From Leucoraja erinacea (taxonomy: Eukaryota): 64,000 nt of DNA. The notes beneath the pieces are model-generated. The model had not been told where the DNA came from and did no database searches. It saw only the letters and a list, made by a program, of their open reading frames with translations. The stretch is from contig NC_073400.1 of assembly GCF_028641065.1 (NCBI RefSeq), positions 19,716,001 through 19,780,000 on the forward strand. The letters run 5' to 3'. Below, piece after piece: positions 7,228-63,250 of the stretch. A program made the translations under genes and the position numbers. Within the stretch, counting starts at the first letter, position 1; each line of letters begins with the position of its first letter.

Positions 7228-7545
7228 CGTATACCTCCAGTCGGACTGTGGACATACTCTGTGCTCCCGTATCCAATGTTTCAGTTACCTCGTAATCTCC
7301 TGTGTCCTGTGTCTGTAGACTTAAAATTTCCAGACTGAAGTCATTGAGATGAAGATTTACTCGTCCCTTGTACTTGGTGTTATAGGTTTTAATTTTCCCT
7401 TTTGTATATTCTAATATTCTGGTGCGGGATGATATCTGTTTCCACACAATCTCAACATTGCTCCTTTTGACTTGAAGCCCAGTAGGTAACAAGGCCTTTT
7501 GTCCCACAGTTCCGATCACAAGGCGAGGGTCCGCCCCAGTCCCAG
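7228..7545 (-). CDS. Gene A exon 2: IgV domain of a CD2/SLAM-family-like receptor (phase 1-1, 318 nt)
   Basis: Acceptor CCCTTGTCTCCTCAG, donor G|GTGAGT. Peptide AGTGADPRLVIGTVGQKALLP...EIVWK...YKGRVNLHLNDFSLEILSLQTQDTGDYEV...VRLEVY has the C-strand Trp and D-x-G-x-Y motif but no cysteines, as is typical of CD2-family V domains. Confidence 0.92.
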
Positions 7546-9487
7546 CTGAGGAGACAAGGGAGGCAGTCAGCAGGAGAGCACAGTAACTGGAGGAGGAATC
7601 GGAGCTGGGAGAATCACAGAGCACAGGAGCAGGCCATGGGGCCCATCATCTGGCTCCCGGCTCTGTTAGAGACCCGGCCCACAGTTCCTTCATCACATAG
7701 TGAGCCCACGGGAGGAAGAGTGAGGACTCTCTGCACCAGGGCTGAGGAAGGAAGTTACAGCTTGCAGCCAGATATCGACGGACGGGTCAGGGGGGCACAG
7801 TCATGACAAGTGGGACCCAGTCTGGAGATGAGGGAGAGGGATTGGGCAGAGTGAACATGGCGAGGGAACACGAGGTAAATTAGTAAGTGGCTGGTGCGGG
7901 GGGGAGGGGGGTGTCAGAGGGAGCTTCAGGCAGATCCTTAGAATGCACATTCACAGATCGCTGATGGAGGAGAGACAGGGGGCGAAGAGGAGAGGATCCT
8001 TGCCTTTGTTGCTTGAGACCAGGAATGTGGTCAGGTTTGGAGTGGGGCTGGTCACATCAGAGAAGGGGGGGAGAAGATAGATTTAAATGGATGGGGCAGG
8101 GTGATGAGAGGTACAAAGATAAATATTTTCCAGAGGCAGAAATAGGATGATACCATTCGGATCCTCAAGTTTATACCTTACAAAAGATCATAGTCCCTGC
8201 TGTCCCCACCCCTCCCCACCACCGAGAACTTTAGGCTGTGCACACCGTACGCAAGAAGACGTCACATACACAAGGCTTCGGAGGCTTCAGCCACGGACCC
8301 TGTGGATGGTAACATCGGGAGCTGACCTGGTTGGAGACCGATTCCGAACTCCAGCAAGAGCAGCTTCGTCCACCCCCAATCGTTTGCGGGGCCTTTCATC
8401 GCCCGGCACGGCTTAAAATCTGCCAGCAGGCCTTTCAACATCGGGAGCCTCGATGCAGCAGTTTAATTTTAAGCCGTGCCGGGCGGAAATGAAAGAACCC
8501 GCGACCCGGCCGATTGAGCCCTTAGAAAGCGTCACCCCCACTGTCTCGCGGAATGCGGAGATTTTAATAGTTTTGTTTTCATCAGATTTCAAAACATGGG
8601 GGGCGGGGCGGGGGGATGTTCACCCACCTCTCAAAACATGGGGGTGGACGACCCCGTCCCAGGATTTCCACCTGTGCTAATGGCGTCGAAATTGGCCTTG
8701 GACTTTAACTTGAGGTTCAGTGCAATCTTTTTCCATGACTACTTTAAAACTAATAAAATTAAGGTCACTGGTCCCAACGTGCTCCTCCACTTACATATCA
8801 GTACCAAATCAGGCATAACCCCCAATATGAGGTCCAGTGTGGCGGCTTGTCCACTCGGCTCATCTACATTAAAATACTGGTATAATCACATCAAAATGAT
8901 CACCGCCTTATCATGTCTATCCATATAGCCTCACAGAACAGTTTCCAAGATAATTCTAAGAACTGCCAAGTTCGTCTCCTCTCTTACCTCCACCTGGTAT
9001 ATGTGCTCCAGAGCACTGAGATGCCAGTGCCCACCAATATTGCCATAACAATCAAAGAATGATATTATCCTGCATTTACTCACCCAGGTTGCTCTGAAAG
9101 AACTTGTCAAACCCACCACTTCTCCCACCGGGAAGAATAAGTGCAATAAGTGCAAGGGGACACCACCACTTGTAGGTTCCTCTCCAAGTCACACACTATC
9201 ACTGTTGGGCTGACCGGACCTCTGCATCTCCCTGTACTCGAGCTCTCCTCCTCACTGCCATCCACATGGACAATTCTTGCTCCATCTAGACTCTTTTACC
9301 ATGCTCCCTACATTTACTGTGGGCTTTTACTTTCTTCACCAGCCTATCAATTAACCGACAGGAATCCATATAGACCAATCAAATTGTATCCCCAAACCAA
9401 GTGTGGTTTACTCTCTCTCCCTCCCTCCCCCCCTCTCCCTGTGAAGAACTGTCTCGAGATGTTCTGTCGGAGCAAAGTGAAGACAGC

Positions 9488-9635
9488 AGTTGGAGTCTGT
9501 TCATTTTATGTTGTTAATTTTATCCATCCGAGCTGATGCCCTGAATGCCCAGAGCCCATATGGAGGTCGGGAGCTGCAGTCAGGGTGATGAGCTGGTTCT
9601 GATGCACTGTTTGATCAATCACTGTTACAAATGGT
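9488..9635. promoter_or_regulatory. Conserved intron-1 element, gene A copy (putative enhancer)
   Basis: Shares exact CTGAATGCCCAGAGCCC and ATGAGCTGGTTCTGAT with the reverse complement of 63098-63250. Regulatory function is inferred. Confidence 0.5.
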
Positions 9636-9757
9636 CAGTAGGTGAAGAGAAGTGCTGGACTCGGAATATGGAGTAAAACATATGGGGGGAAAAGAGGGGA
9701 TGAAGGAAGGGAGGGAGTGAGAGAAAAAGAGTGGAAGGGGATAGGTTGTGACCTTAC

Positions 9758-9809
9758 CCAGAGAGATGGCAAGTAGGACGGGGCGGAGCAGGCAGGTGAG
9801 CCGCCCCAT
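9758..9809 (-). CDS. Gene A exon 1 coding part: signal peptide MGRLTCLLRPVLLAISL(A)
   Basis: Kozak context AAGATGG, hydrophobic core, phase-1 donor G|GTAAGG that joins the IgV exon in frame. Confidence 0.85.
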
Positions 9810-9976
9810 CTTCAACCGTCTCTGGGAGTCGGGGCGGGAGGCTTGGATGTTGTCGAAAAGAGCTTCCGGTTGACTGCGCCCGCCCGGGGAAAGGCGGCCG
9901 ATCCGCGGGCGTCGAGCTCACGGAGTCTGGGGCCCGTGTCCCTGCAGCCGGCACACTCCCTCTTCCTCTGCTCGGC

Positions 9977-9985
<9 letters not shown>
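9810..9985 (-). promoter_or_regulatory. GC/CpG-rich 5'UTR-promoter of gene A
   Basis: Local CpG enrichment, GC boxes (ggggcggg 9831, cgcccgccc ~9877), ETS cores (cttccgg ~9873, ctcttcctct ~9960). No TATA box seen. Confidence 0.55.
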
Positions 9986-10008
<23 letters not shown>

Positions 10009-10357
10009 TTCTACCCCCAAATCTCTCTCTCTCTCTCTCTTAATTCTGGCTCCCCGATTATCTCTCCCCAGCCATATTCCTCCATTTCTCTCTTCGCCAG
10101 CCATGTGTTTGTCGCGACCCCATCTCTCTCCTCCCATTGGTCTCTCCCTCTATTTCTCTCCCCCTACCCTTCCCACCATTGTTTCTTCCCCCCCCACACA
10201 TTTCTCTTCTTACATAACCTATGTTTCTATCTCAACGCCCATGTTCCTGCCCCACCCCATGCCTCTATGTCACTCAACCGCATCTCCTTCCTATCACACT
10301 CCTTCAAGCCTGGGTCCATTAGCTCTGGGAGTTGGTGGGGACCAAGGCCTTGACCGC

Positions 10358-11399
10358 GTAGGTATCTTACAAAACCTACCTTAATCGTCATTGAGAATCT
10401 GCCCCAGCCCGTGTGTGTGATGTTGGCGCTGTTTAGAGGGGGCGGGTTTAAAACGCGATTTTTACTAGGCTGTTGCAATCGAAAATGTTCAGCATAGTAA
10501 ATCATTAACGAAAAATCGCTGAAAGACCCCGTCGCAAAAGGTATTATTAGTTTTTATGGCCTTGTATAATAGTTATAGTAGTTTAAAAACCACTCTCTCA
10601 ACCCGCAACCTCTCGCAGCCCCAGGGTTTTATAAAGCAAACAATTAAAGGTATGTACCTTATTTTTACATTAAAAGGGGCTTCTTAAGAACCCTGTATAT
10701 AAAGTTTTCTATAGCGAGTAGCTCATTTTGGGCTCTTTATATCCCGCAGTATTTTTCTGGGCATTTGAGGGCACTAATCTAGCGCAATGTGAACGTTCTA
10801 AACCAGCGCGTTCACAGGAACCCACTAGAAAGCCGATTTAAAATGGACTTTAATTTACAACAATTGAACACTAAATTCCTTCCATTTGGCCTATAAATTG
10901 ATGTAAATGAGATTTTAAAATCATGTTTTATTGTGAATTATTTGTGAATATTATTTGGACACTTAGGCTATTTAAAAATGTTAATCATTTATTAAGAAAT
11001 GGATAGATGTTTAGATCTAGTAATTGAAGTTTGAAATTAGCTACAATTGGGTAACTAACTAATTATATGCTTTAATTTCAGGCCATCCAAGTAAGATTAT
11101 TTTATATTTGTTTCAGAATGGTTCAATCTATGATAACTGACAATTTCATTCAGTTCTCTTAATTTTTAAGAAGGTTATGGGCTTTTGACTGTCCATGATC
11201 ACAGCTTTTTTGTTATGTCCATAGAAAATCAATAGGGAACAAGATGCTAATTTCCGAGTATGAAAATGGCCATAACTTTTTTATTACTTGAGATATGAAA
11301 GTGAATTAGGTGCCAAATTAAACTTATTTTTATGCTTTATCTGATGGGATAAATTGCAGACTTGATTTTTTAAATCTCAAAATTTTGTAACATTGCTAC
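10358..11399. mobile_element. Non-autonomous DNA transposon (1042 bp) with imperfect 17-bp TIRs, superfamily unassigned
   Basis: Left end GTAGGTATCTTACAAAA; right end reverse complement GTAGCAATGTTACAAAA. AT-rich non-coding interior, sharply different from the flanks. Confidence 0.7.
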
Positions 11400-15750: not shown

Positions 15751-15965
15751 GTAAAATGAAGAAAGAAAAAATCCTCCTTAAATCTCTAAACCGCTCCAGC
15801 ACCTTCACCTCACCTATCTCTGAAAGCTTCTCCAGTCCCTACATCTCTCCCCAACTCTATGACCCTCCCAGAACACCACCCCTACCTCTACTACGGGCGT
15901 AATGAGAATGCATTAGAAAAGGCCTTTGAGGGATTATATATTTTTTAATTTAAAAAATAAAATAA

Positions 15966-23143: not shown

Positions 23144-23229
23144 GATGGGCGTCGTTTCCCAGTAACTGGGCATGTGCAGAGGCACTTTCTGTAAAACGGA
23201 GGCAGCAGGTGTCTTTGAGCTGGGGTCTC

Positions 23230-25092: not shown

Positions 25093-25287
25093 GGGTATAG
25101 AATGAAGCACGCTGGTCTGGTCTTTCTTGGCACCAGTTGGCCCAGTACACAGACAGGTCAGCCAGTGTCAGTTGTTTTGGTCTCAGTATGCAGTAGCAAT
25201 GGATGATGATCATCACAATAAACACAATGATGATCCCAATGATGACAATGACGATCAGCACTATCACCAGCCACCGCAATCCTGTAG
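25093..25287 (-). CDS. Gene B exon 4: transmembrane and juxtamembrane segment (phase 1-1, 195 nt)
   Basis: Acceptor TCTTTTCTCCTCACCAG, donor C|GTGAGT. Peptide ATGLRWLVIVLIVIVIIGIIIVFIVMIIIHCYCILRPKQ...RASFYT. Confidence 0.88.
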
Positions 25288-30200: not shown

Positions 30201-30485
30201 CAGATGTGGGCTGTTTACAGACGTCTGTCAGGTAGATATGTGCCATGCCTGTACTGCCCGGGTTGGTGGCCTCACACCTGTACTCAACGTTCCTGTCCTC
30301 TGCTGTAGGATGAACCTCTATCGTCTCTCCTTGTCCCCGGAGGTGATGGATGCTGTCGTTTCCCAGAGCTTCTCCTCCCTTCCACCACATGAAGCTGGTG
30401 GGGTTGCCAGAGGTCACGGAGCAGTTCAGGTTGAAGTTGCAGATGCCCTTGTGCTGAACCGAGATCCGTGTTCCTGACACATGTT
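30201..30485 (-). CDS. Gene B exon 3: IgC2 domain (phase 1-1, 285 nt)
   Basis: Acceptor TTTCTTTGTCCCAACCCCAG, donor G|GTGAGT. Peptide EHVSGTRISV...ICNFNLNCSV...MWWKGG...YRCEATNPGS...DVCKQPTS has the four cysteines typical of CD2/SLAM C2 domains. The join gives LEVYEHVS. Confidence 0.92.
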
Positions 30486-33400: not shown

Positions 33401-34357
33401 CGTATCCTTGGGTTGCACTGGCGAGACATGCAACTGGATCTGGAGCACAGGTCTTCCATACTATAGCTGTGATGTTGTCAGGAAACACTGCTCTCCCCAG
33501 GGCTCTCAACCATTTCCTGGGATCACATGGACTGAACTGAATAGTCCGGGGACAGTTCTGTGTTGGAGGGATCACAGACGGAAGCAGAGGGAGATCATCC
33601 ACTCACACCTCCGGCTGTGGAGGGGCATGTTTGTGGGTGATCAGCCTTGTCTCCAGCACTCACATGCAGGGTTCCCGCATCGCTGAGAATGGTGATGTTC
33701 TTAAAGACTCCTCACCACATGAGCTGTTGAATTGTCCACCACTAGTCATGACCAGATACGAGATGACTGTAGAGCTGTGACCTGAGCCATGGGCAGTGCG
33801 GTCCCTTAGCTCTATTTCATGCGGCTGTTTTTGCTGATGAGCTCGCACGTCGCCCTGTGTCACAGCTTCATCAGGCTGGCACCTCGTCGTGCTTAGCTAC
33901 ACCTGGTGCTGCTTCCAGCATGTCATCTGCGCTCCTCAGTGAACCAGGGATAACCCCCACTGGGTGACAGTAATGGTGGTGTGAGGGATGTGCTGGACTA
34001 TGAGATTACAGGCTGTGTGCAGGACATTTCTGCTGATGATGGTCCACAGCACCCCATGAATCCCAGTGTTCAGTTGTTGGGCCTGTTTTGACGGTGCTCA
34101 GCTCCTCCAGCCTCGGAGCCATGAGGTTCCCCGTTGACAGCTCGATCCTTCGCGGCCCCTTACCCAGTCTCCAGGGATGTCCCCCAGCTTGGCACTGCCC
34201 CAGTCCCATTACATTGGGACCGTCACCCCCCACTCTGGACACTGGCAGTCAGTGGGATTCAGTAAACAATGTACAGTATCAGCCTTCATCATTTATGTGG
34301 GATGAGGGGTTTCATTAAATGGTTAAACCCACACCCCTTGGTGGCGGTCTCACTCAC

Positions 34358-34675
34358 CGTATACCTCCAGTTGGACTGTGGACACATTCTTTGCTCCCGT
34401 ATCCAGTATTACAGTTACCTCGTAATCTCCCGTGTCCTGTGTCTGTAGGCTTAAAATTTCCAGACTGAAGTCATTGGGATGAAGATTTACTCGTCCCTTG
34501 TAATTGTTGTTATAGGTTTTAATTTTCCCGTTCTTATATTCCAGTACCCTGGTTCTGGATGACATGTGTTTCCACACAATCTCAAGATTGCTCACTTTGA
34601 CTCGAAGCCCAGAAGGTAACAAGGCCTTTTGTCCCACAGTTCCGATCACAGGGCCAGGGTCAGCCCCAGTCCCAG
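34358..34675 (-). CDS. Gene B exon 2: cysteine-less IgV domain (phase 1-1, 318 nt)
   Basis: Same splice sites as the gene A IgV exon. SGTGADPGPVIGTVGQKALLP...EIVWK...DTGDYEV...VQLEVY; about 81% amino-acid identity to gene A by hand alignment. Confidence 0.92.
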
Positions 34676-39184: not shown

Positions 39185-39290
39185 TCTTGTTCAGCCTAAG
39201 CCCTTGTGAGAGATCAGAAACCTGCTGTTAAGCTGCGATAAGGGAGGGCGTTTACTCAAACGATCAAATGGTGGCAGGAAGTGGTTTGCA
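39185..39290. promoter_or_regulatory. Conserved intron-1 element, second and more diverged gene B copy
   Basis: gggagggcgtttactcaaacgatcaaatggtggcaggaagtggtt matches the reverse complement of 63098-63146. Confidence 0.5.
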
Positions 39291-41103: not shown

Positions 41104-41158
41104 AGTCTGAGATGGCCAGCATGAGCCAGAAGGAGATTGGCAGGCACCTGAAGTCCAT
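41104..41158 (-). CDS. Gene B exon 1 coding part: signal peptide MDFRCLPISFWLMLAISD(S)
   Basis: Kozak context GATATGG, phase-1 donor T|GTAAGT. Resembles the gene A leader (CL...LLAIS). Upstream GC box (~41253) and GAGGAAGT PU.1/ETS site (~41280). Confidence 0.82.
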
Positions 41159-47028: not shown

Positions 47029-50000
47029 AAAAACCCAATCCCACGCAGAGTTGGGTGGGAGGAGGGGGACCGGTGGGCTAATATTCGTCCGAGACATCCA
47101 TGTCCGCATCCTCCTCCATGGCATCAGAGGAAAGCTCCGTCTCGTCATAACTCAGACGGAAGAGGGGACAGAGTCTCAGGGGCGGCGACCCCTATAGCAG
47201 TGGCGGACTAGGACGGCTGGTCGGGATGACGTTGGTGAAACTCCCTGATGATGGAGGCGTCCAGGATGTGTCGAGCAGGATCCAGGACCTCTCCTCTGGA
47301 CCGTAACCCTCCCAATCGACCAGGTATTGGAGACCCCTCCCGCGACGGCGGGAGCACAGGAGGCGGTGCACCGTAAAGGCAAATGAGACGAGGAGGTGGA
47401 GGAGGATGGACTGCGGGGACCAGGGAGCTCTCCCGGACTGGCTTTACTCTGGACACGTGGAACGTAGGTTGGACCCGCATGGAACGAGGCAACTTGAGCC
47501 TCACAGCCGCTGGGTTGATGACCTTCTGGATCTCAAAGGGACCGATGAACTTGGGTGCCAACTTCTTGGACTCCACCCTCGAGGGAAGGTCCTGGGTCAA
47601 CAGCCACACCTTCTGGTCCATGAGGTAGGTGGGGGCCTGGGTGCGGTGATGGTTGGCAGCTGTGGCGTAACGATCCATGGAGCGGAGAAGAGCCGCTCTG
47701 GCTTGGCTCCACGTCCTGCTACAGCGACGAATGAAGGCCTGGACGGACGGGCAGGAAACCTCTTTCTCCAGCGCCGGGAACAATGGAGGCTGGAACCCGT
47801 AGGCACACTGGAGAGGGGAGAGCCCAGTGGCCGAGCTTGTCAGGGTGTTGTGGGCGTACTCCACCCACAACAACTGCTGGGACCAGGAGGAGGGATGCTT
47901 GGACACCATACACCGCAGCGCCGTCTCCATCTCCTGATTCTTCCGTTCAGTCTGGCCGTTGGACAGGGGATGAAATCCGGACGTCAGACTCACGGTGGCC
48001 CCCACAAGCGTGCAGAACTCCCTCCAGAACACAGAGGCAAACTGGGGTCCCCGGTCGGAGACCACATCGACGGGGAGACCATGGAGCCTGAAGACGTGGA
48101 GTAACATGAGCTCGGCAGTTTCCTTGGCTGACGGAAGCTTGGGCAGGGGCACGAAGTGAGCCATCTTGCTAAATCTATCGACCACGGTCAGGATGGTGGT
48201 GTGACCACTGGATGGGGGCAGGCCGGTAACGAAGTCCAGGGAGATGTGGGACCATGGTCGATGGGGTACAGGCAGTGGAAGCAGATGACCCACAGGAGCT
48301 TGGTGTGAGACCTTGTGCTGGTTGCAAACGGGACAGGCGTTGACAAACTCCCGAGTGTCCTCCTCCAGCGATGCCCACCAGAACCTCCGTAGCACCATCT
48401 CCTTGGTCCGCTGAATGCCGGGATGACAGGCGAGTCGAGAACTGTGGGCCCACTGAAGGACGTCGGACCGCAGGGCAGAAACCACAAACAGGCGATCAGG
48501 AGGGCATGCGCTGGGTCCCGGCTGGTTCTCCAAGGCCGCCTTGACCTTCTCCTCCACCTCCCAGGTGAGGGAGGCAACCCTGTGCGAGGACGGGAGGATG
48601 GTCTGGGGGCCAAGAACTGTCGAGAGAGGGCATCGAGCTTCACGTTGTGGGACCCAGGTCGGCAGGAGAAGGAGAAGTTGAAGCGGGTGAGGAAGAGAGA
48701 CGAGCGGCCTGACGAGAGTTGAGCCTCTTGGCTGACTGGAGGTATTCAAGGTTCTTGTGGTCAGTCCAAACCAAGAAAGGCTGCTCGGTTCCCTCCAGCC
48801 AGTGACGCCATTCCTCCAACGCCAACTTAACCGCCAACAGGTTGCCAATGTCATAATTCCTCTCAGCAGGGGTCAGGCGTCGGGAGAAGAAGGCGCATGG
48901 ATGTAGCTTCTGGTCCCCGGCAGCCCACTGGGACAGAACAGCTCCCACCCCCCACGTCGGAGGCGTCCACCTCCACCACGAACTGTCTGTCTGAGTCCGG
49001 AACTTGGAGGATGGGGGCCGATGTAAACCGTGTCTTGAGTGTCCGAAAAGCTTCGTCGGCCGCGGCAGACCACCGAAACGGAAACTTGGAGGAGGTGAGT
49101 GCCGTGAGGGGTGTGGCCACAGTACTGTAGCCACGGATGAACCGTCGGTAAAAATTGGCGAACCCCAGGAACCTTTGGAGCTGTTTGCGGGAGTCAGGAA
49201 CAGGCCAGGTGGTGACAGCAGAGTCCTTGGCGGGGTCCATCTTGATGTTCCCTTGGCCAACGATGTATCCTAGGAAGGAGACTGACGGGGAGTGAAACTC
49301 GCACTTCTCAGCTTTAAGGAAAAGCGAGTTCTCCAGGAGCCGATGTAGAACTGCCTGGACGTGGTGTACGTGTTCATCCTTGGTCTGTGAAAAGATGAGG
49401 ATGTCATCAATATAGACGAACACGTACTTGTTCAACATGTCTCTGAGAACATCATTGATCAAAGCCTGGAAGACGGCCGGGGCGTTGGTGAGGCCAAAGG
49501 GCATCACCAGGTATTCATAATGTCCCATGGGAGTGTTGAAGGCGGTCTTCCACTCATCTCCCTCTTTGATGCGGACCAAGTGGTAGGCGTTGCGTAGATC
49601 CAACTTCAAAAAGATGGTGGCCCCCTCCAGGAGCTCGAAAGCAGAGGAGATGGGTGGGAGAGGGTAGCGATTCTTCACCGTGATGCCGTTGAGCCCCCGG
49701 TAATCTATGCAGGAACGCAGAGATTTGTCCTTCTTCTCCACGAAGAAGAACCCAGCCCCAGCAGGAGACGAGGAGGGACGGATGAGACCAGCAACCAAGG
49801 AGTCGCTTATGTATTTATCCATGGCGCCTCTCTCAGGGGCGGACTGGGAATAAAGGCGCCCCTAGGAGGAGCGGAACCAGGCAGGAGGTCTATGGCGCAG
49901 TCATAGGGCCGATGAGAAGTGAGGGAGGTGGCCCTAGACTTGCTAAAAACCTCCCCAAAGTCATGGTACACAGCTGGGACCCCCGTCAGATCTGGAGCAG

Positions 50001-51479
50001 AACTGGAGCAGGAGGCCGTTTGAGGAGATGATGCTTGCTTCAGGCACACTTGGTGGCAGGAAGGGCTCCAATCCAAGATGACCCCCATCCTCCAGTCGAT
50101 GTTGGGGTTGTGTCACCGAAGCCAGGGGTAACCCAGGATGAGGAGAAGACGGGGAGACTGCAGGATGTGGAACTGGATGGTCTCATGGTGATTACCAGAC
50201 AGGAGCATGCGCACTGGGACCGTCTGGTGAGAAACAGTCCCCAGGAGATGGCCGTCGAGGGCGTTGGCGGGAACAGGTTTAGGCAGGGGAACACAACTGA
50301 TGCCTGGCTGACGGGCTAGTTCCATGTCCATAAGATTAATGTCACAACCAGAGCCTATGAAGGTGGCGAGGGTGTGAGAACCATCAGACAACAGCAGACG
50401 GGCATGACAAAGAGGGCGTCGGGCAGAGGAAAGTTCAGAGGTTTGACTCACCAGTAATTCCTCCGCTACTGGCGAGTCTGGCCCTTTTACTGGACACTTG
50501 GAGATGTAATGACCCGCCAGGCCACAGTAGAGACAGAGGTTCCCCCGACGCCGACGTTCCCATTCCTGGGGGGTGGGACTGGTGCGACCCACCTGCATGG
50601 GTTCGGGTTGCCTCGATGGTTGCCCCGACGAGGGTAGTCCAGTCTCCGGAGGAAAACGAGCTTGGGTGGATAGCTGGCGGACCCCCTGTCCTTGTCGCCT
50701 CTCCCGACGTCTCGCCAGGATGCGTCGGTCCAGATGGGTCGTTAGCTCGATAAGCCCACCCAGAGAAGAAGGAAGGTCGTGGGACACCAACTCATCCTTG
50801 ATAAAGTCATTCAAGCCCAGCAAGAAAGCGTCACACTGGGCCAGGGCATTCCAATCACTCTGACGGGCCCTGGTGCGAAAGTCGATGGCGAAGTCAGCGA
50901 CGCTCTGGTTCCCCTGGCTCAACCCCAGCGGACCTCCCGCAGCGTCCGGACCCATCGAAACCTCACCGAACACCTTGCGAAGCTCCACGGCGAAAGCCTG
51001 GAAAGAGGAGCAAGCCGGCGTGCGTCGCTCCCATACAGCCGTTCCCCACAGCCGAGCTCTGCCAGTCAGGTGATTAATGGTAAACGCCACTCTCGCCGCT
51101 TCCTGGGCGAAGGTGTAGGGCTGTAGGGCGAAAAGAATGGAACAGCTCATGATGAATGGGTTGCAGCCCTCCGGGTCTCCAGCGTAGTGCTCCGGGGTTC
51201 CCACCCGGGGCTCAGGTGATGGTCCTGGCGGACTGGGAGCTGGTGCAGTCAGAGCCGGAGGCGAAGCATGGGGTGTAGCCTGGGCGAGGGTGGTCGTCAG
51301 CTGTTGGACCTGGGTGGCTAGTGCAACCAATGCTTGCTCTTGGTTTGACACAGCCTGTCGAACCTCGGAGTTGGAGGCAGTGAGCATAGCTTCGTGCTGC
51401 AGGAGCGTGTGCTCAATCCTCTCGAAACGGTTTGACGGAGACGTTGTGTGCGCTGAGTCCATTGTTGGCCAGATTGTAC

Positions 51480-51978
51480 TGTAACGGGTATAGCTTGGAC
51501 CCAATAGCAGCACAGAATCAGGCAGGTATAGTTGGTAATGAACTTTATTACAACACTGTAACACAGAGTAGTAACACAGGAATGGGTACACTGTACTCAC
51601 ACAGAGGCTCAGAATTGAGCGAGGGTTCCGAAGAGGGGCAGGCAGGAGATGTAGTCGGGGTAGCGGAAGGTCCGGTAACCAGGAGATCCAACACACGATG
51701 CAAACAAACCTGCGAGGGACAGACGAGAGGAGAGTCGAAGCCAGGCAGGAAGTCGAGGAGCCGTTGCAGGGATACACCAAACAGCCCAGGAGAGAGGCAG
51801 ACAGAAACCAGGATGTACGGGACGAAGGCCGGGGTCGGTGACAGAAGGCTGAGGTGATATCCGGGAAGACGACAGGACGGAATGGTCAGGGGCAGGCAGG
51901 TTCGAATCCGTGTAGGCAATCGGGAAATCGCTGGAGAGTCTTGCATGAATGCTGAGAACAATCTGGCACCGGGATCAA
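51480..51978 (-). repeat. 5' LTR (R-U5 part; U3 missing)
   Basis: Ends ...GTTACA directly before the PBS GTACAATCTGGCC and the gag ATG. The outer end abuts the LINE ORF1 ATG. Confidence 0.85.
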
Positions 51979-53193
51979 ATGGCAACTCAGGTAGGATTAG
52001 AGGATGACGAAGACCAAGATGATGGGGCTTTTGGTGACTGGACGTCAGTGTCTAGTCGGAGATCAGGGAGGAATCAAGGAGAAGGAGGAGTCAGGCAAAA
52101 CGAGCTCAGCCAAAGCAGCAAAAGGAGTTTTGAAGGGAACAGTTCAGAAGAGGATAGGAGAACAGTTCGGAAAAAGGTTGAAAGGAAGGAGGTTAAAATA
52201 ATTTTGAAATTTAGAAAGGAAGATGAGCATGTCAATTTAAGTCCGATAGCTTTATCCAGGGAGCTAAAGAAGAAGGTAGGAGAGGTGGAAACAGCTAAGA
52301 TTTTGAGAGACGGGAACTTGTTAATAATATGTAAAACGGAGGAGCAGAAAAATAAGGCTCTGAAGATTGAAAGTGTTTGCAAGAAGATGGTCAGTGAAAG
52401 AAAGACTCTGGGTGAGAGTAGAGTGACAAGGGGAGTAATAACAGGTATTCCTGTAGATGAAGACCTGGAGAAACTCAAACGGAGTATTTTTGGTGGCCAG
52501 GTGAGTGTAGCTAAGAGATTGTTAAGGACAGTGGAGGGTAAGAGGGTAGAGAGCTTGTCTGTGCTTCTGGAGTTTCAGCAGTCTGAACTACCAGAAAAAG
52601 TGAGAATCGGATGCATGAGCTTTCCAGTGAGGCCTTATATCCCTCCACCGCTCCGATGTTATAAATGCCAGAGGTATGGACATATAGCAGCGGTGTGTAA
52701 GGGGAAGCAGAGGTGTCCCAAGTGTGGAGGAGAGCATAGATTTGAAGAGTGCAGAGAAAATATGCAGGATAAATGCTGCAATTGCGGAGGACCGCACAGG
52801 GTAACGTATGGGGGATGTGAAGTCAGGAAGAGGGCTGTGGAGATTCAGCAAGTGAAAACAGTAAGTAACATAAGCTACTCAGAGGCAGTGAAGAAGGTGC
52901 AAGGACAAAGGGGAAGAGTGGATATAATTGGGAGAGAGAATCATCCGTTTTTGAGATTAGAGGAAAGTCAAGCAGTCAAAACTCACACAGAACTGACAGC
53001 TGATAAGCTTATTGTTTTCATTGCATATGTAATCAACTGTACTGATCAGGTTAAACACAAAACAGAAAAAATAAAAATCATTGTTAAGGGAGCAGAGAAG
53101 TTTTTGGGTTTAAAAGAAGTATCATGGGAGAGTATCAATAAAAAGCTTGAAGCAGATGGAAGGCAGGAAGGTTCTGGTGATAGGTCAAATTGA
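51979..53193 (+). CDS. ORF1 (gag-like, three CCHC zinc knuckles) of an I/Nimb-clade LINE
   Basis: Uninterrupted ORF from MATQVGL with CYKCQRYGHIAAVC, CPKCGGEHRFEEC and CCNCGGPHRVTYGGC. Confidence 0.92.
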   Translation: MATQVGLEDDEDQDDGAFGDWTSVSSRRSGRNQGEGGVRQNELSQSSKRSFEGNSSEEDRRTVRKKVERKEVKIILKFRKEDEHVNLSPIALSRELKKKVGEVETAKILRDGNLLIICKTEEQKNKALKIESVCKKMVSERKTLGESRVTRGVITGIPVDEDLEKLKRSIFGGQVSVAKRLLRTVEGKRVESLSVLLEFQQSELPEKVRIGCMSFPVRPYIPPPLRCYKCQRYGHIAAVCKGKQRCPKCGGEHRFEECRENMQDKCCNCGGPHRVTYGGCEVRKRAVEIQQVKTVSNISYSEAVKKVQGQRGRVDIIGRENHPFLRLEESQAVKTHTELTADKLIVFIAYVINCTDQVKHKTEKIKIIVKGAEKFLGLKEVSWESINKKLEADGRQEGSGDRSN

Positions 53194-56100
53194 TTATATT
53201 ACAATGGAACGCAAGGAGCATAATAGCAAATGGACAAGAGTTTAAAGGATTCATTAAAGAGTTAAAGAAGAAACCAGAAGTCATATGTATTCAAGAAACC
53301 TGGCTTAAGCCTTCATTAGACTTTGTCATCAAAGGTTATGATAGTATCCGTAGAGATAGGGGGGAGGGGAGTGGAGGGGGGTGTGTAATATTTATAAAGC
53401 AAGGAATACAGTATAGATTGTTGGTGAAAGGAACAGAATTAGAATATTTAGTGGTTGAAATTTGGACAAGAGAAGGTAAGGTTAAAATTGTTAATTTTTA
53501 TAAACCGTGTAAAAGGCTTTCGATGGAGTTGATGGACGAACTTGCTGGGTATTTAGGGGGGAAAGTTATATGTTGTGGAGATTTTAATGCTCATAGCACG
53601 TTGTGGGATGATTCTAATGATGAAAAATGGGATGGTGATTGAGGATTTAATGGAGAATAAAAACCTTGTGTGTCTTAATGATGGAAGTGGGACACGAATC
53701 AACATCAGAACAGGGTCAGAATCAGCCATAGACCTCACACTAGTGTCAGACTCATTGGCGGGTGTTTGTTCATGGGAAGTAATTCGAAGAACAACGGTAG
53801 GAAGTGACCACTACCCGATAGAAATAGTAGTAGGAGTGAGTTTAGAGGAGTATAATACAGAGAGAATACAGAAGTGGTCTTTTAGTGGTGCTGATTGGGA
53901 GAAGTTTAAGATTATTAGTGATCAAGAAATGGAGAAAATTGATATTTATGAAGATGTGGATAATTTAAATATTTCTGTTTGTGAAGCCATTTTAGAGGCA
54001 GCAACAAAGTCCATTAAGAAGAAAGGAGGTAAGCACAACAAGAAGAGTGTACCATGGTGGACTAAGGAGTGTGACAAAGCAATTAAGTGTCGAAATAAAG
54101 CTTTTAAAATTTTGAAAAGAAATCACAATTTTCAGAATCTTATTGAATACAAAAGGTTGCAAGCAAGTGTAAGAAGAGTAATAAAAAATGCAAAGAGGGA
54201 ATTTTGGAGGACATTTTGTAACTCAGTGGGAAGGGAGACAAAAGTAGGTCAAGTTTGGGGAATGATAAGGAGAATGAAAGGAATTAAAAGAGAATACAAA
54301 TATCCAATCCTAACTGACGGTGAAATTACAGCAGTGAAAGATGAAGAGAAAGCAGAGATGTTGGCAAAATCTTTTGCTAAAATTCACAGTTCAGACAATG
54401 TTAGTGAAGAAGGAAGAAAAGGAAAAGAAAATACTATAGCAGAGAATATACAGTTAATACGACATGAGGAAGACACTAACGATGTTCTTAACAAACCATT
54501 CACAAAGACAGAATTCAACCGAGCTCTTAGAAAAACCAAGATGTCAGCACCAGGTAAAGATCAGATTTGTTACACCATGTTAAACCATCTCAGTGAAACA
54601 TCCAAGGATTTTTTGTTAGAATTTTATAATAAAGTGTGGGAGGGTGGGAAATTACCGCAAAGCTGGAAGGAGGCAGTAGTAATCCCAATAGGAAAGCCAG
54701 GTAAAGATCTGACAAACCCAGGGAATTATAGGCCTATTGCGTTAACATCCAACATATGTAAAGTAATGGAAAAAATGGTAAATGAAAGGTTAACATATTA
54801 TGTAGAAAATAAAGGATATTTATCCAATTACCAGAGTGGTTTTAGGAAGGGGAGAAACACCATGGATCCAGCTATATGTTTAGAACATGAAATTAGGAGA
54901 GCACAAATTAACAGAGAAAGTGTAGTAGCTGTATTTTTTGATATTGAGAAAGCATATGATATGATGTGGGGAGAAGGGTTATTAGTGAAACTAGGTAAAT
55001 TGGGGATTAAAGGTCGTATATTTAAATGGATTAAGGATTTTTTATTTGGGAGGTCAATACAAGTACGAGTTGGAAATCAATACTCAGGAACATTAGATAT
55101 TGAAAATGGAACACCTCAAGGGAGCATAATAAGTCCTTTACTATTTTTAGTAATGATAAATGATGTATATGAAGAAATTGTAAATGAAATGGGAGTTTCA
55201 CTGTTTGCGGATGATGGGGCAATCTGGAAAAGGGGGAGAAATGTGAAGTTTATTGTGCAGAAACTACAGAGGGCTATAATAAAGGTACAAGAGTGGTCAT
55301 ATAAATGGGGATTCAAATTTTCTGTGGAAAAGACAAAGATAATGTTTTTTACTAGGAAGAAAATTGGTAGTGAGGTTAAAACTAAAATTATATAACCAGG
55401 AATTGGAGAGAGTAAAATACTATAAATTTTTAGGTTTATGGTTTGATGAGAGGATTACATGGATGGTTCATATTCAGAAAGTAGTGGACAAATGTAAGAA
55501 GATACTTAATGTAATGAGATGTTTAGTTGGATGTGATTGGGGGGCAGATAGAACAGCTTTGAAGGCTATATACACTGGGTTAATTAGATCTGTGTTAGAT
55601 TATGGTTGTGTGGTGTATGGGTCCGCATCAAGTACTTCTCTTAAGAAAATAGACAACATTCAATATCAGGCATTGAGAATATGTACAGGTGCAATAAAAA
55701 CAACTCCAACAGCAGCATTACAGGTTGAAATGGGGGAGATGCCTCTAGAGATGAGAAGGATACAGCTTTCATTGAATTACTGGATTAACCTACAGGGCCA
55801 CAGTCAAGAACACCCAGCACAAGTTACTGTCAAACCATGCTGGGAAAAGGAGAGAAGGGAAACAAAAAGTTTTGGATGGACAGTGACCCAGAGAGCATTA
55901 CAAATCAGCATAGCACAATTAAATGTGGTTCCAACGGTTCCATTACCTTCAATTCCACCTTGGATACTTCCAGATGCAACAGTAGACTTTACAATATTAG
56001 AACAGAAAAACAAGGATAAACAACATATGTATAATTCATTCATCATACAGGAATACATTGACAGATACTACAGTTTTGTCCAAATTTATACAGATGCATC

Positions 56101-56932
56101 AAAAGATTCAGTAGATAAAGTAGGAGTAGCATTTATTGTACCAGAATTTCACATCAAAGTAGGGAAGAGGATCAATAATGAAGTCTCAGTATACACAGGT
56201 GAAATGATTGCAATATTGTTAGCGGTACAGTGGGTCGAGGATACTAGGCCTTTAAGGACAGTTATTTGTTCAGATTCAAGTTTAGCAATAAAGAGTTTAC
56301 AGCACAGCCATTCAGACAGTAGACCAGACATTTTGATTGAAATACAACAAACACTATTCAGAATTCAAATGATGGGGCTTACAGTCATATTTTTATGGGT
56401 ACCAGCACACATTGGCATTAGAGGAAACGAAATGGCAGATAAGGTAGCAAAAGAGGTAACAAAAAGAAGTAAGATTGATTTAAGTATTAACATAGGTAAA
56501 ACTGAAATCAAAGACATTATTAAGCAAAGACTGAAGGAAAGATGGCAAAAGCAATGGGAGGAAGAGCGGAAAGGACGGTGGTTCTACAGAGTCCAGAGGA
56601 AAGTGGGAGAAATGAGATGTGCAGGAAAAAACAGAAAAGAGGAGACAGTAATTTCAAGAATTAGATTTGGACACACTGGTCTGAACAGTACACTTTTTAT
56701 AATAGGCAAGCATAATACAGGCAGATGTGAATACTGTGGGCAAGAAGAGACAATAGAGCATGTCATTGTACATTGTGAGAGGTATGAGGAGGAGAGAGGA
56801 CGGATGAGTGAGCAGTTCAGAAAAGAAAGAGTACAATTTGATTTGATAGATATTTTGCAAGGGAGTTCATATAAGTGCTATCAAATCCTGTTGCTTTTTC
56901 TTAGGGTAACCAATTTGTTCAGAAGGATATAG
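53190..56932 (+). pseudogene. ORF2 (APE endonuclease-RT-RNase H-CCHC) of an I/Nimb-clade LINE, with two single-base frameshifts (~53625 and ~55380)
   Basis: ILQWNARS, CIQETWL, GDFNAH, SDHYPI (APE); YRPIALTS, GTPQGS, LFADD (RT); IYTDASK, ICSDS, WVPAHIGIRGNEMADK (RNase H); CEYCGQEETIEHVIVHC. Confidence 0.93.
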
Positions 56933-58877
56933 GTTATTAGTATATGTAATGGTGTTGTTTGATCCACACTCCATGCCAACATGTAGATGCTAGTATATCA
57001 TTGAGGTTATCAAGTGAGCATCTCCCTTCACTAGTGTTTCATTGAGTTAGGCCCATGACACCTCAGGAAGATGTAACAGAACCATCTGCCTCAATACACG
57101 GTCTTACCAACTATGATGCCAGTACTAAGCAACCAAGTATGTAAATATCTACTAAGTAAAATAAACTACAGATGATTGATTCAGGACTCAAACAAATGCT
57201 AAACACGCATGGCCTGTCTTACATTTATCCCAATCCTCCATCAAACAATCGTAACGCTACTAATATCAACCTCATATAAAACCGAAGGAATACACTTACC
57301 ATGCATTATGCATTTCAAGCGTTGCCCTCCCTTGTAGAATCTATATATTGCCCAAGGAAACTTTCCTGGATCATATTTAACAAATACCAATGGCACTATG
57401 ACATTCCCGGTCTATATTGGGAAGGTTAAAATTCCCGACTATGACAATCTTATTAGCCTTACAGCTGCCTGAAAATTCTCATCATGTTTGTTCTTCTAAT
57501 TTCCTTTGACTATTTGGGGACCTAAAATAAACTCTCAACAAACTCTCAAACTTCCCCATTTTAATTATTTTACTTCTCAGCTCCACCCTTATAGCCTCAC
57601 TGGGTGAACTATCAGTAACATAATCTGGACTGCTGTTGTGACATTCTCTTTAAACAATAAAGCAAACCTACCCCCATTAGCATGTGCCATTAGGGGTAAT
57701 CGGGAGATTATGCCTTGGAGGTCCTGGTGTTTGCCCTTTTGCTTAATTCCCTATATTCATTTTGCAGGACTTCATCCCTTTTTCTGCCTATGAAATTTGT
57801 GCCAACAGGCACACAACTTCTGGCTGCTCCCCCTCCCCCTTGACAATGCCATGTAACCACTCAGACATGTTGGACTCTGGCACCAGGGAGGCCACACACC
57901 ATCTTGTAGTCTCAATTGCTGCCACAAATTCCCCTGTGCGCCCCTCATAACTAACGAGTCATCTACCACGACAGCTCTAACGGCTGCATTTTGAAACCTC
58001 CCTTTGTTCTCCCACTGCAATTGATTTACTCAGCCAATCCAGTGCCTGCCTTTTAATATCTGGGCAGGAACGTGTTGAACAAGTGGAACAGAAACTATGC
58101 ATGTTTCTGGACAGGGAGAGGGCTCTGAAGAGTGGTTTGCGCAGTGCTCAGTTCCCTGTGGACATGATAGAAAATCACAGTAACCCAGAGAACATGGGGT
58201 TCACCACATCTGCATGTAACATCACCCAGTCATCAGTCCAAACTGTGCATCTCCGGCTGGGATCCACACAATGCACCATTCTAGTGCAAGGCTGGACATT
58301 GGCCTCAGATCTGTCACAGATGGATACAGGATGGTTGCAGCACAGGACACTGCTTGGCTCCTCCAGCCTGTACCAACTGCATATAGACAAGGAGAGAAAC
58401 AGAGAGTCACTGCAACAAATACAGTTAGAGGGAAACGCATAGATAGAGGAAGAAAGATGCAGAGAGATAGAGGAGATGCATTAATATTGAGAAAGTGAGA
58501 CACAAAAAGATTTGAGACAATTACATAGATTGTAAGGGAGGATGTACCGAAATTAAGAGAGAAGAGCAGAGAAACTGACAGAGATACACAGAGATTGTAG
58601 AAGGGAGGTTCACAGAAATTGAGAAAGGAGATGAGAGAGAGAGAGAGAGAGAGGCAAACTCAGATTAAAAGCGTGACACTGTGAGAGTGAGATACAAAGA
58701 GATTGAGAGAGGAAGACGCTGAGAAAGAAGGGTGGAGACTGACGGAGAGACACATGGAGAAAGATCCAGGGCAACTACAGGTGAGAATAAGAGGGATGGA
58801 TGGAGACCTATATTGGAACAGACAGACCGGCTAAATTAAAGGAAGAGTGATGTTGGCAGAGAGATTAAGTGAGAGAG

Positions 58878-61800: not shown

Positions 61801-61890
61801 ATGCGCTGCTATAACATCTTTTATAATCGACTCCAGCTCTATTCCCCACTACCGATGTAAGGCTAACTGGTTTATAATTCCCCCTTTTCT
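58878..61890 (-). mobile_element. CR1 LINE interrupted by a repeat head (~59480-59750) and a Helitron
   Basis: RPRLEYCMQFW and LDVVHLDFEKAFEKFPHKRLL peptides. The sequence is contiguous across the Helitron (aaatcgttaa|tatatattgtaaac). Confidence 0.9.
60098..61436 (+). mobile_element. Non-autonomous Helitron with internal tandem repeats and a C-rich low-complexity tract
   Basis: 5'-TC (TCTATATTACTAAAAG) and 3'-CTAG termini, inserted between A and T of a CR1 with no TSD. ggttctaaaa repeats at 60450-60605; C-rich tract at 60605-61270. Confidence 0.85.
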
Positions 61891-61992
61891 CACTCACTGG
61901 AAAGTGGAGTTACATTGGCTGCACTGCAGTACACAGGAAAAGAGAGGGAGAGAGAGGAGAGAGAGAGAGAGAGAGAGAGGAGAGGATGAAGA

Positions 61993-62193
61993 NNNNNNNN
62001 NNNNNNNNNNNNNNNNNNNNNNNNNNNNNNNNNNNNNNNNNNNNNNNNNNNNNNNNNNNNNNNNNNNNNNNNNNNNNNNNNNNNNNNNNNNNNNNNNNNN
62101 NNNNNNNNNNNNNNNNNNNNNNNNNNNNNNNNNNNNNNNNNNNNNNNNNNNNNNNNNNNNNNNNNNNNNNNNNNNNNNNNNNNNNNNNNNNNN
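61993..62193. other. Assembly gap (~200 N)
   Basis: Run of N next to a (GA)n tract. Confidence 1.
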
Positions 62194-62526
62194 GGACTGT
62201 GTGCGGATGTGTGCATGGAGAGGTACATGCAACGATGTAGAGAGAGTCACATATGTAGAGAGTTATAATAATACGGTCCATGAGACAGAGATCAACTGAT
62301 GCATAGAGACTGGGATAGAGATTCTAATTAAAACAAAATGAAAAAGCAAACAAGTCAGAATGTTGGTACGGAAGAGGTCAGTGCAATGTGTTTCTTCTCT
62401 GTATGTATCCTCTGTCACATGCAGAACATGCTGCCTATTACCCTATCACAGGCGGGTCTGAGGAGGAGTCAGTTCCTGATCTTTTCACTTATTTTAAATC
62501 TCGCATCGCTGAAACATCACTTCAAG

Positions 62527-62593
62527 ATGTGGCACTTTTCTTTGAGGAGGATCCCCTTCCTACTCTGTGCATCCCTCATCGCCGTCTTTGTAG
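62527..62593 (+). CDS. Probable gene C exon 1 coding part: signal peptide MWHFSLRRIPFLLCASLIAVFV(x); likely a third family member running off the window
   Basis: AAGATG start context as in gene A, hydrophobic core, phase-1 donor G|GTAAGT. Followed by a pyrimidine tract and the family intron-1 element, as in genes A and B. Family assignment is indirect. Confidence 0.7.
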
Positions 62594-63097
62594 GTAAGTA
62601 CAGATATTAATGATCAACTCTGGTTATCGATGGGTATGAGGATTGTGCAGGTTTTCCAACCCATTCAACCCATTGTGGTAATTTCCTGGCTTCATGCTAG
62701 CCCAAATGCTGCCACACTGTCATAAAGGTGGGACACACTGGTCTCTCATTCGGTCCATCTCTCTGTCATTCACAGCCCCTCTTCCATTCTGCTGATGTTA
62801 TCTTTCTTTATCTCTCTCTCTATCGAAACACTCCTTCTCTCACTGACCCTATTTCTGTGCCTCTTTCTCCAGTTCTGTCACTTTCTGCTGGTTCCTGACA
62901 TCTCTACAAACCTCTCTGTAGTTAACATTGTATTGCCATTTGTGCCTCGCTATCTCTCTCCCTCCCTCCCTCCCTCCCTCCCTCCCTTCAACAACCTCCC
63001 GCCCTCCACCCATTCCACTACTCTCGCTTTACATCCGCAGTCCAGCTCTATTTTTCACTTCACATACTTCTTGTTCAGCAAAGTGTTCTGAGCCTGA

Positions 63098-63250
63098 ACC
63101 ACTTCCTGCCACCATTTGATGCAATGTTTGACCAAACACCCTCCCTATCAGAACCAGCTCATTGCACCCTGACAGCAGCTTCTGACTTCTACAGGGCTCT
63201 GGGCATTCAGACTATGAGCTCTGATGGATAACAGTAATGAACCCCAACTC
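63098..63250. promoter_or_regulatory. Conserved intron-1 element, gene C copy
   Basis: aaccacttcctgccaccatttgatgcaatgtttgaccaaaca...gggctctgggcattcag...gatggat is homologous to 9488-9635, 39185-39290 and 40358-40489. Confidence 0.55.

What the first reader, a model, noticed from the sequence alone, without database searches (positions are those of the whole stretch)
7228..63250. Cluster of at least three paralogous receptor genes, two in tandem (minus) and one divergent (plus)
Seen: three short phase-1 signal-peptide exons (9758-9809 minus, 41104-41158 minus, 62527-62593 plus). Each is followed on its own sense strand by a pyrimidine-rich tract and the same conserved element. Two lead to paralogous IgV exons. 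Inference: an expanding immune-receptor locus, possibly containing paired activating/inhibitory members or receptor-ligand pairs, as CD2-family members usually bind one another. The gap at 61993-62193 makes the position and orientation of gene C less certain.
Basis: partly seen in the sequence, partly recalled or inferred. Interest (0 to 1): 0.7.

Follow-up and report, generated by a model that had tools for sequence, protein, structure and literature searches.

The report
Skate SLAM immune-receptor gene cluster
The three genes have intact reading frames and belong to a large skate cluster of SLAM-family immune-cell receptor genes, whose look-alike outer domains are joined to different tails that likely switch cells on, switch them off or send no signal; the family is known, and its mixed make-up in skates is the point of interest.

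Summary
Observation confirmed. The three leader exons, two IgV exons and shared intron element are at the stated coordinates. Both predictions held: gene A's C2 exon lies 1.7-2.0 kb left of the window, and gene C's IgV exon 1.6 kb right of it. The genes belong to a cluster of about 370 kb with 13 IgV exons plus two C2-only genes. Disulfide-free V domains, four-cysteine C2 domains, best folds (CD48, CD2, CD58, NTB-A) and linkage to COPA/NCSTN identify the skate SLAMF locus; a separate CD2/CD58-like pair lies on another chromosome. A and B have no tyrosine motif. C is V-C2-C2 with an ITSM tail conserved in three other batoids. Neighbours carry ITIM+ITSM or ITAM tails, so a paired-receptor reading is plausible, but binding and signalling are untested. 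Expression: faint support for B, no reads for C in four runs of unknown tissue, A untested. NCBI already labels such genes SLAM-like. This scan earlier noted the ITAM gene and cluster in another skate genome. Side finding: a multicopy DNA transposon carries half of a SLAM V exon across 11 contigs.

The parts
9758..9809 (-). Gene A leader (signal peptide) exon, phase 1
9514..9635 (-). Conserved intron-1 element, copy A (likely cis-regulatory)
7228..7545 (-). Gene A IgV exon, no cysteines; Pfam V-set and Receptor_2B4. The gene continues left of the window: four-cysteine C2 exon at -1715..-1999 (G000:C24:19714001-19714285), TM exon at -17000..-17185, stop at -17490; 289-aa model, no tyrosine motif
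41104..41158 (-). Gene B leader exon, phase 1; also the start of NCBI model P0001
40350..40488 (-). Conserved intron-1 element, copy B (a second, partial copy at 39241-39286)
34358..34675 (-). Gene B IgV exon, no cysteines; best PDB sequence match CD48
30201..30485 (-). Gene B C2 exon, four cysteines
25093..25287 (-). Gene B TM exon with uncharged TM and conserved W/C-rich juxtamembrane segment
24704..24758 (-). Gene B short tail exon (55 nt), homologous to Rhinoraja P0002
23230..23524 (-). Gene B last coding exon, Ser/Thr/Pro-rich repeats, no ITSM; 400-aa model
62527..62593 (+). Gene C leader exon, phase 1; same leader type as in Amblyraja P0185 and Pristis P0196 SLAM-like models. The gene continues right of the window: IgV 65564-65881 (G000:C24:19781564-19781881), C2 exons 70270-70551 and 73095-73376, TM exon 78354-78491 (GC donor), tail exons 78942-79030 (TIYAQP) and 79946-80164 (TIYDTV, QEYETV); 464-aa model
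63102..63237 (+). Conserved intron-1 element, copy C; ETS-type core (motif recalled)

Best explanation
Genes A, B and C have intact reading frames and belong to the skate SLAMF gene cluster, where C likely signals through SAP/EAT-2-type adaptors or SHP phosphatases at its ITSM tyrosines, and A and B likely act as non-signalling ligand or adhesion partners. Shown: exon structures, disulfide-free V plus four-cysteine C2 domains, tail motifs, synteny, and block duplications that copy leader+element, V, C2 and TM/tail modules separately. Inferred: surface expression on leukocytes, V-to-V binding between cells as in mammalian SLAMs, adaptor use, and enhancer function of the intron element. The cluster has grown by tandem and inverted segmental duplication with module shuffling, which gave similar V domains different tails.
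For: Domains: Pfam V-set and Receptor_2B4 above cut-off for the A, B and C V exons; best PDB sequence hits CD48, then CD58 and 2B4. None of 11 aligned V exons has Cys at the B- or F-strand disulfide positions; 8 of 10 C2 exons have four Cys, and the other two (ITAM genes) show three in the part I cut out. This is the SLAM definition in PMC12084948 (passage). Fold: the B ectodomain model has its top 7 Foldseek rows all CD48/CD2/CD58/NTB-A, rmsd 2.9-4.2, with CEACAM1 at rank 22. Tails: C has TIYAQP, TIYDTV and QEYETV; orthologue models in Amblyraja, Rhinoraja and Pristis keep the tail, the latter two with TIYAQV. Synteny: COPA at C24:20.19 Mb, NCSTN at 20.23 Mb, a Kir channel gene at +227 kb, CASQ on the same chromosome. 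A separate divergent V-C2-TM pair lies on C13 0.45 Mb from VANGL/CASQ; the human gene order used for comparison is recalled. Shuffling: A's leader is duplicated at the -38 kb gene, C's at +103 kb, and A's TM/tail block is 85% identical to that of the -55 kb gene while their V domains are 49% identical. The V domains of C, the ITIM gene and gene E form one clade (99/97), with C 68-72% identical to the other two. The A/B exons differ more than their adjacent introns (31/315 vs 55/1218, p=5e-4; 28/282 vs 95/1839, p=4e-3).
Against: No splice junction was seen for any gene: none among the 15 joints shown (773 more not shown, repeats dominate). There was zero depth on C's leader, element and V exon in 4 of 4 runs (tissue unknown). 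The V-profile PDB search scored CEACAM1 as high as CD48 (54.4 vs 53.4 bits), though only over the C-terminal half. The C2 sequence search returned no SLAM chain among 45 hits. In VIA-align, BTN3A chains tie with CD48/CD2/CD58 within 1 Z unit (16.1 vs 16.7; rmsd 3.5-4.1 vs 2.2-2.5). C's first motif ends in P, not V/I. No SAP/EAT-2 gene was looked for in this genome. The excess of non-synonymous change is seen in C2 (26 vs 2, p=0.033, uncorrected) but not in V (22 vs 9, p=0.52).
Confidence: 0.88

Rival explanations
1. The genes are CEACAM-like receptors, which also have a disulfide-free N domain, IgC domains and paired tails.
For: CEACAM1 scores equal to CD48 with the V profile. CEACAM chains appear among the C2 sequence hits. 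One fish protein labelled CEACAM6 passed the profile search.
Against: The best-scoring CEACAM rows cover only profile positions of about 37-110, while CD48, CD84 and SLAMF6 cover about 10-110; CEACAM15 and CEACAM8 cover the whole domain but score lower (42 and 32 bits). The C2 exons have four cysteines. Foldseek ranks 1-7 are CD2 family. The cluster is linked to COPA/NCSTN, and the TIYAQ-type motif is present.
Confidence: 0.04
2. The cluster is the expanded CD2/CD58 locus rather than SLAMF.
For: CD2 and CD58 structures are among the top fold matches. A and B lack ITSMs, as CD58 does (recalled).
Against: A separate divergent V-C2-TM pair sits on C13 near VANGL and CASQ. This cluster sits beside COPA/NCSTN and has ITSM members. 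I did not find the proline-rich CD2 tail on C13, so naming that pair CD2/CD58 rests on position and domains.
Confidence: 0.03
3. A, B or C are recent pseudogenes or assembly duplicates with no function of their own.
For: The cluster holds clear relics: a V exon with a stop at -120 kb, gene D with two broken C2 exons, gene E without TM/tail here, an orphan leader at +136 kb. There are no reads for C. NCBI's model of B stops after C2.
Against: All three models are open end to end with proper splice sites. A and B differ by 10% in exons and have different leaders and tails. A has a 95%-identical V in Amblyraja. C's tail exons are 74-91% identical to Amblyraja and Rhinoraja models. Contigs from two runs cover parts of B's V exon.
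Confidence: 0.07
4. The shared intron element is a small non-coding RNA or a transposon relic rather than a regulatory DNA element.
For: It is about 130 bp, lies in an intron in sense orientation in most copies, and one copy is inverted (-86.7 kb).
Against: No Rfam match in the window. Folding z-scores are -1.0 to +0.6 for 4 of 4 copies tested. No reads on copy C (these libraries would lose short RNAs). All 6 genome hits lie in the cluster. Indels are not multiples of three.
Confidence: 0.15

Closest known systems
Mammalian SLAMF cluster (SLAMF1-9: CD150, CD48, Ly9, 2B4, CD84, NTB-A, CS1, SLAMF8, SLAMF9)
   Same: Tandem cluster; leader-V-C2-TM-tail exons in phase 1; V without the canonical disulfide; C2 with four cysteines; TxYxxV/I motifs in some members and short motif-free tails in others (PMC4718992, PMC12084948 passages); linkage to COPA/NCSTN (human order recalled).
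   Different: No one-to-one orthology was shown; the supported groups in the tree are skate or single-genus groups (no mammalian rows in the tree). C is V-C2-C2, a layout not listed for mammals in the passages read. One member is V-stalk-TM with ITIM plus a PD-1-like TEYxxV, and two are C2-only with ITAM patterns. Both orientations are mixed. No GPI-anchored CD48 equivalent was identified.
NCBI automatic models in skates, rays and a shark (CD48-like P0001, 2B4-like P0002, SLAMF5/6/8/9-like, Ly-9-like)
   Same: Same family and, for P0001, the same gene B; V identity to C's V is 50-83% in the 25 hits.
   Different: Names are inconsistent (HEPACAM-like, NCAM2-like, unc-89-like, uncharacterized). 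P0001 lacks B's TM and tail. No full-length Leucoraja model of A or C came up.
Paired receptor families (CD300, KIR/LILR, teleost LITR, Xenopus FcR-like; recalled, PMC2413239 seen as listing only)
   Same: Similar ectodomains joined to inhibitory, activating or absent tails; birth-and-death duplication.
   Different: Built on the SLAM scaffold. The activating members carry their own ITAMs; a mid-membrane lysine occurs in only one gene (-38 kb), and in none of the 26 TM segments called among the 35 homologues printed.
Multicopy Pack-TIR elements (PMC8277862, passages)
   Same: Side finding: a non-autonomous TIR element carrying a host gene piece with its intron, copied to several chromosomes with different target duplications.
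   Different: That survey found only 4 multicopy cases (1.4%) in reference genomes, and its main text does not contain the word shark. This one has at least 13 copies with nearly the whole 389-bp query and carries an immune-receptor exon piece.

Membership tests
CD2/SLAM family | Membrane-distal IgV domain without the canonical disulfide | tested here: met
   Pfam V-set and Receptor_2B4; no B/F-strand Cys in 11 of 11 aligned V exons
CD2/SLAM family | Membrane-proximal C2 domain with two disulfides (four Cys) | tested here: met
   Four Cys at matching positions in A, B, both C2 of C, and 8 of 10 exons overall; the bonds themselves are inferred
CD2/SLAM family | Two-domain fold closest to CD2-family structures | tested here: met
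   Foldseek ranks 1-7 CD48/CD2/CD58/NTB-A; VIA-align top Z 16.7 (rmsd 2.5, 177 aligned) but tied with BTN3A
SLAMF subfamily | ITSM (TxYxxV/I) tail in signalling members; motif-free short tails allowed | tested here: met
   C: TIYDTV (plus TIYAQP); -143 kb gene: TVYATV; A and B none
SLAMF subfamily | Clustered at the locus linked to COPA/NCSTN, apart from CD2/CD58 | tested here: met
   human order recalled
SLAMF subfamily | Expression on haematopoietic cells | tested here: inconclusive
   Low cover of B's V exon in runs of unknown tissue; none for C
SLAMF subfamily | Homophilic or intra-family binding through the V domain | not tested
   No complex prediction or assay was obtained
SLAMF subfamily | Recruitment of SAP/EAT-2 | not testable with these tools
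   An sh2d1a-like gene is reported in bamboo shark T cells (PMC11372145 passage); not searched in this genome
CEACAM family | IgC domains with a single disulfide (recalled) | tested here: not met
   Four-Cys C2 exons
Paired receptor family | Similar ectodomains with opposing signalling tails | tested here: inconclusive
   C's V is 72% identical to the ITIM gene's and 68% to tail-less E's; no V exon was found for the ITAM genes; opposing function not shown
Academ (AcademX-type) DNA transposon, side finding | TIRs with 3-4 bp target site duplication; TAG...CTA ends (ends recalled) | tested here: inconclusive
   About 15-bp TIR; 3-bp duplication exact in 4 of 6 copies with both ends, one mismatch in 2; TSD length fits the PMC10045372 passage; no autonomous partner was sought

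The most novel reading that the evidence does not exclude
In skates the SLAM locus works as a full paired-receptor complex. Shuffled V, C2 and tail modules give SAP-type (gene C), inhibitory ITIM, directly activating ITAM and tail-less decoy or ligand members (A, B) under diversifying selection. This would be the cartilaginous-fish counterpart of the KIR/LILR/CD300-type systems, built on a scaffold that mammals use only with ITSMs.
Probability: 0.35. Interest if true: 0.62.

Novelty: new variant of a known kind. Interest (0 to 1): 0.42.

Why it matters
It places a clustered SLAMF locus, already separate from a CD2/CD58-like locus, in cartilaginous fish. It also shows tails (ITIM, ITAM) and layouts (V-C2-C2, V-stalk, C2-only) outside the mammalian consensus. 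If paired signalling is real, it offers candidate activating and inhibitory receptors for shark and skate NK-like and T cells and makes SAP-dependent T-B help testable there. The family itself is well known and partly annotated, so surprise is moderate.

Tried and rejected
Run search: no RNA holder listed on record; three partial holders. One search was swamped by SINE/LINE reads and showed no splice joint. One search gave no reads on gene C. Non-coding RNA reading of the element: no Rfam hit, no folding signal. My first tail models for A and B (direct TM-to-last-exon splice) were wrong; homologue models revealed an extra short exon. TM lysine as an activating mark: present only in the -38 kb gene and in none of the homologue TM segments printed, so weak. 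The dispersed V-exon hits were first taken for retrocopies; rejected because they keep the splice donor and intron and lie inside a TIR element. The representative search was dominated by multi-Ig proteins; I looked up names for only 14 of its 150 listed hits. No complex prediction was obtained, so binding is open. A genome-wide profile search with the V alignment was not available; counts outside the 654 kb fetched rest. The TM exon of the ITAM genes and the leader of the -88 kb gene were not settled. Literature: none of the titles or abstract starts listed in searches describes a chondrichthyan SLAM cluster. Subscription journals and genome-paper supplements were not seen and may list these genes.
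Full report
Setting. The window is G000:C24:19716001-19780000 of a 2.19-Gb genome. A protein model that matches gene B at 100% and lies on a contig of the same length is labelled 'CD48 antigen-like [Leucoraja erinacea]', so the organism is a skate. Coordinates below are window-relative; negative values lie to the left. I fetched 200 kb to the left and 390 kb to the right.

Observation. All three leader exons are exact: 52, 55 and 67 nt, ATG start, hydrophobic peptide, phase-1 GTAAG donor. The pyrimidine tracts are 73-78% C+T. The shared element aligns at 76-78% with E near 1e-19. It has 6 genome matches among 6 candidates, all in this cluster; a finer local search gives 9 full or partial copies. 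It follows the leaders of A, B, C, D (+103 kb), E (+148 kb) and the -38 kb gene at 123-616 bp. No copy was found after the leaders at -58 kb and -139 kb. It has no Rfam match, no folding signal in 4 of 4 copies and frame-breaking indels. Its best-kept part holds an ETS-type core (motif recalled). I read it as a likely intronic enhancer copied along with the leader; this is inference.

Gene anatomy. Full models computed in scripts are open with proper splice sites. A is 289 aa: leader, V, C2, TM (-17000..-17185), short tail. B is 400 aa: same ectodomain, tail of Ser/Thr/Pro repeats. Neither has an ITSM or ITIM, and both TM segments are uncharged. C is 464 aa: leader, V, two tandem C2 (70270-70551, 73095-73376) from an internal 2-kb duplication, TM (78354-78491), and a tail with TIYAQP, TIYDTV and QEYETV ending at 80164. 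C uses a GC donor after the TM exon, as does the -88 kb paralogue at the same place. Models from Amblyraja (P0185), Rhinoraja (P0189) and Pristis (P0196) have C's tail; P0185 and P0196 have C's leader type ahead of the V. These are NCBI predictions, not my measurements, but they argue that the 62527 exon heads an Ig gene.

Family. The V exons match Pfam V-set and Receptor_2B4 above cut-off, and CD48 first in PDB. No aligned V has the B/F cysteines, and 8 of 10 C2 exons have four. This is the SLAM pattern stated in PMC12084948 (passages). An AlphaFold model of B's ectodomain (mean pLDDT 75 overall, mostly over 90 in V) has CD48/CD2, CD2, CD58 and NTB-A as its top seven Foldseek rows, with CEACAM1 at rank 22. 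VIA-align agrees on the top row but ties butyrophilins within one Z unit. Against: the V profile scores CEACAM1 as high as CD48, over half the domain only, and the C2 sequence search found no SLAM chain.

Synteny. COPA (C24:20.19 Mb) and nicastrin (20.23 Mb) lie on opposite strands about 330 kb from the last V exon. An inward-rectifier channel gene lies at +227 kb, and one of two calsequestrin loci is on C24. The other calsequestrin lies beside the only VANGL found, on C13. About 0.45 Mb away is a divergent pair of V-C2-TM genes. With the human order (recalled), C24 is the SLAMF locus and C13 the CD2/CD58-like locus.

Cluster. Profiles found 13 V exons between -143 and +144 kb (11 of them built the profile; one has a stop) and 13 C2-type exons, 10 of which built the profile. 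Tails differ. C and the -143 kb gene have ITSMs (TVYATV; the Amblyraja orthologue is labelled SLAMF6-like). The -88 kb gene (-88435..-94800) has V, a Thr-rich stalk, an ITIM and TEYAAV. A, B and the -55 kb gene have no motif. The -38 kb gene has no motif and a lysine in its TM. E lacks TM and tail in this assembly. D is a broken chimera. PMC12151841 (passage) says SAP's phospho-independent binding needs a hydrophobic residue before the tyrosine. C has that, and the -88 kb gene has glutamate, as PD-1 does, so C is the SAP-type candidate and -88 kb the inhibitory one (inference). An earlier scan note on another skate genome (e1-10274745) led me to check the two C2-only genes at +185 and +204 kb. 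The first has two ITAM-pattern exons; the second has one intact and one degenerate. I did not settle their TM exon. C's V domain groups with those of the -88 kb gene and E (support 99/97; C is 72% and 68% identical to them). A groups with an Amblyraja V (95%), then B, then a Rhinoraja V, so the A/B duplication likely predates the Leucoraja-Amblyraja split (42 rows, no mammalian rows, 19 of 39 inner branches open). The A/B exons are about twice as diverged as adjacent introns (p 5e-4 and 4e-3). C2 shows 26 non-synonymous against 2 synonymous changes (p 0.033, uncorrected); V shows no such excess. That is suggestive of diversifying selection, no more.

Expression. On gene B, two contig sets guessed to be RNA hold pieces of the V exon without mismatch (215 and 173 nt; one ends at the exon edge), and one holds part of the last exon. 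Raw depth in the V bin is about 2, against 0.6 or less in the intron bin on its 3' side (33438-34051); the bin on the other side is repeat-filled. No splice joint was among those shown. On gene C there was no depth on the leader, element or V exon in 4 of 4 runs.

The N stretch. Its nature cannot be told. Gene C is whole to its right, and opposite orientations also occur without any gap on each side (-55 kb against -38 kb; C against E). Only the B/C head-to-head layout depends on it.

Mechanism. Most likely these are leukocyte surface receptors that engage each other V-to-V across cell contacts, as mammalian SLAMs do (PMC4718992, abstract start and passages). C would recruit SAP/EAT-2 or SHP phosphatases through its tyrosines; A and B would serve as motif-free ligands or adhesion molecules, like SLAMF8/9 or CD48. 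Structure, motifs and position are shown; binding, adaptors and cell type are inferred.

What is known. Shark Slamf6 and sh2d1a-like transcripts are mentioned in single-cell studies (PMC10529500, PMC11372145; passages), and an 'slamf' gene in a shark MHC figure legend (PMC10751288; passage). NCBI labels many batoid homologues SLAM-like. Seven literature searches listed no paper whose title or abstract start describes the cluster; supplements and subscription journals were not seen.

Side finding. Eight partial V-exon hits on other contigs belong to an element of about 1.9 kb. It has terminal inverted repeats of about 15 bp and 3-bp target duplications (exact in 4 of 6 copies with both ends located, of 10 fetched). 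It carries about 300 bp of a cluster gene: the 3' half of the V exon, the donor and the start of the intron. The copies are 77-88% identical to gene E over this piece, and E was the best match among cluster genes for 8 of 8 copies compared. A genome search gave 13 rows covering nearly the whole 389-bp query, on 11 contigs, among 40 of 763 candidates scored. Multicopy Pack-TIRs were rare in a survey of 100 animal genomes (PMC8277862, passages). The Academ assignment rests on TSD length (PMC10045372, passage) and recalled ends.

Verdict. Interest 0.42.

Noticed in passing
L078-L087, L042-L049 (G000 C1, C2, C3, C4, C5, C6, C7, C8, C10, C14, C24, C28): Non-autonomous DNA transposon of about 1.9 kb (TIR about 15 bp, 3-bp TSD, Academ-like) carrying the 3' half of a SLAM V exon with its donor and intron; at least 13 copies cover nearly the whole 389-bp query. 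Relatives without a match to this cargo lie at window +83 kb, +190 kb and +349 kb.
   Followed up: partly
window +180.7 kb to +218.3 kb (L012-L016): Two tandem C2-only genes with ITAM-pattern exons at the cluster edge; the second has one ITAM degenerate.
   Followed up: partly
L031-L032, window -88435..-94800: V-stalk-TM gene with ITIM and PD-1-like TEYAAV; a similar tail occurs in Pristis and Hemitrygon models.
   Followed up: partly
L036, window -44272..-44451: TM exon of the -38 kb gene has a lysine mid-membrane, not seen in the homologues examined.
   Followed up: partly
window 47208-51885 (-): Ty3/Gypsy-type LTR retrotransposon with gag, RT and integrase in separate open frames, CpG-rich, between the B and C leaders.
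   Followed up: partly
window 51972-56978 (+): Young LINE with endonuclease, RT and RNase H; 98-99% identical to a copy at +156 to +166 kb.
   Followed up: partly
window +103 kb to +123 kb (L004-L006): Gene D: copy of C's leader and element (93%), an inverted copy of the -143 kb gene's V, two broken C2 exons and a conserved TM/short tail; likely a chimeric relic.
   Followed up: partly
window +140 kb to +148.5 kb (L008-L009, L069): Gene E has leader, V and C2 but no TM/tail in this assembly, whereas a 90-92% identical unnamed protein (P0194) has TM and an ITSM tail. An orphan leader sits at +135.9 kb and a palindromic repeat at +131-133 kb; a local deletion or misassembly is possible.
   Followed up: partly
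L028-L031, window -98 kb to -128 kb: Four divergent V exons with extra cysteines (one with a stop); long branches, weak or no Pfam match for the three tested.
   Followed up: no
L074-L076 (G000:C13:27.54-27.565 Mb): Divergent pair of V-C2-TM genes, likely CD58- and CD2-like; no proline-rich CD2 tail was found in the 80 kb fetched.
   Followed up: partly
window +239 kb to +261 kb (L018, L020): A CTX/JAM-like V-C2-TM gene (recalled likeness) and a B7/butyrophilin-like V exon between the cluster and COPA.
   Followed up: no
G000: Only one VANGL locus (C13) was found; none near NCSTN, where humans have VANGL2 (recalled). The search gives lower bounds.
   Followed up: no
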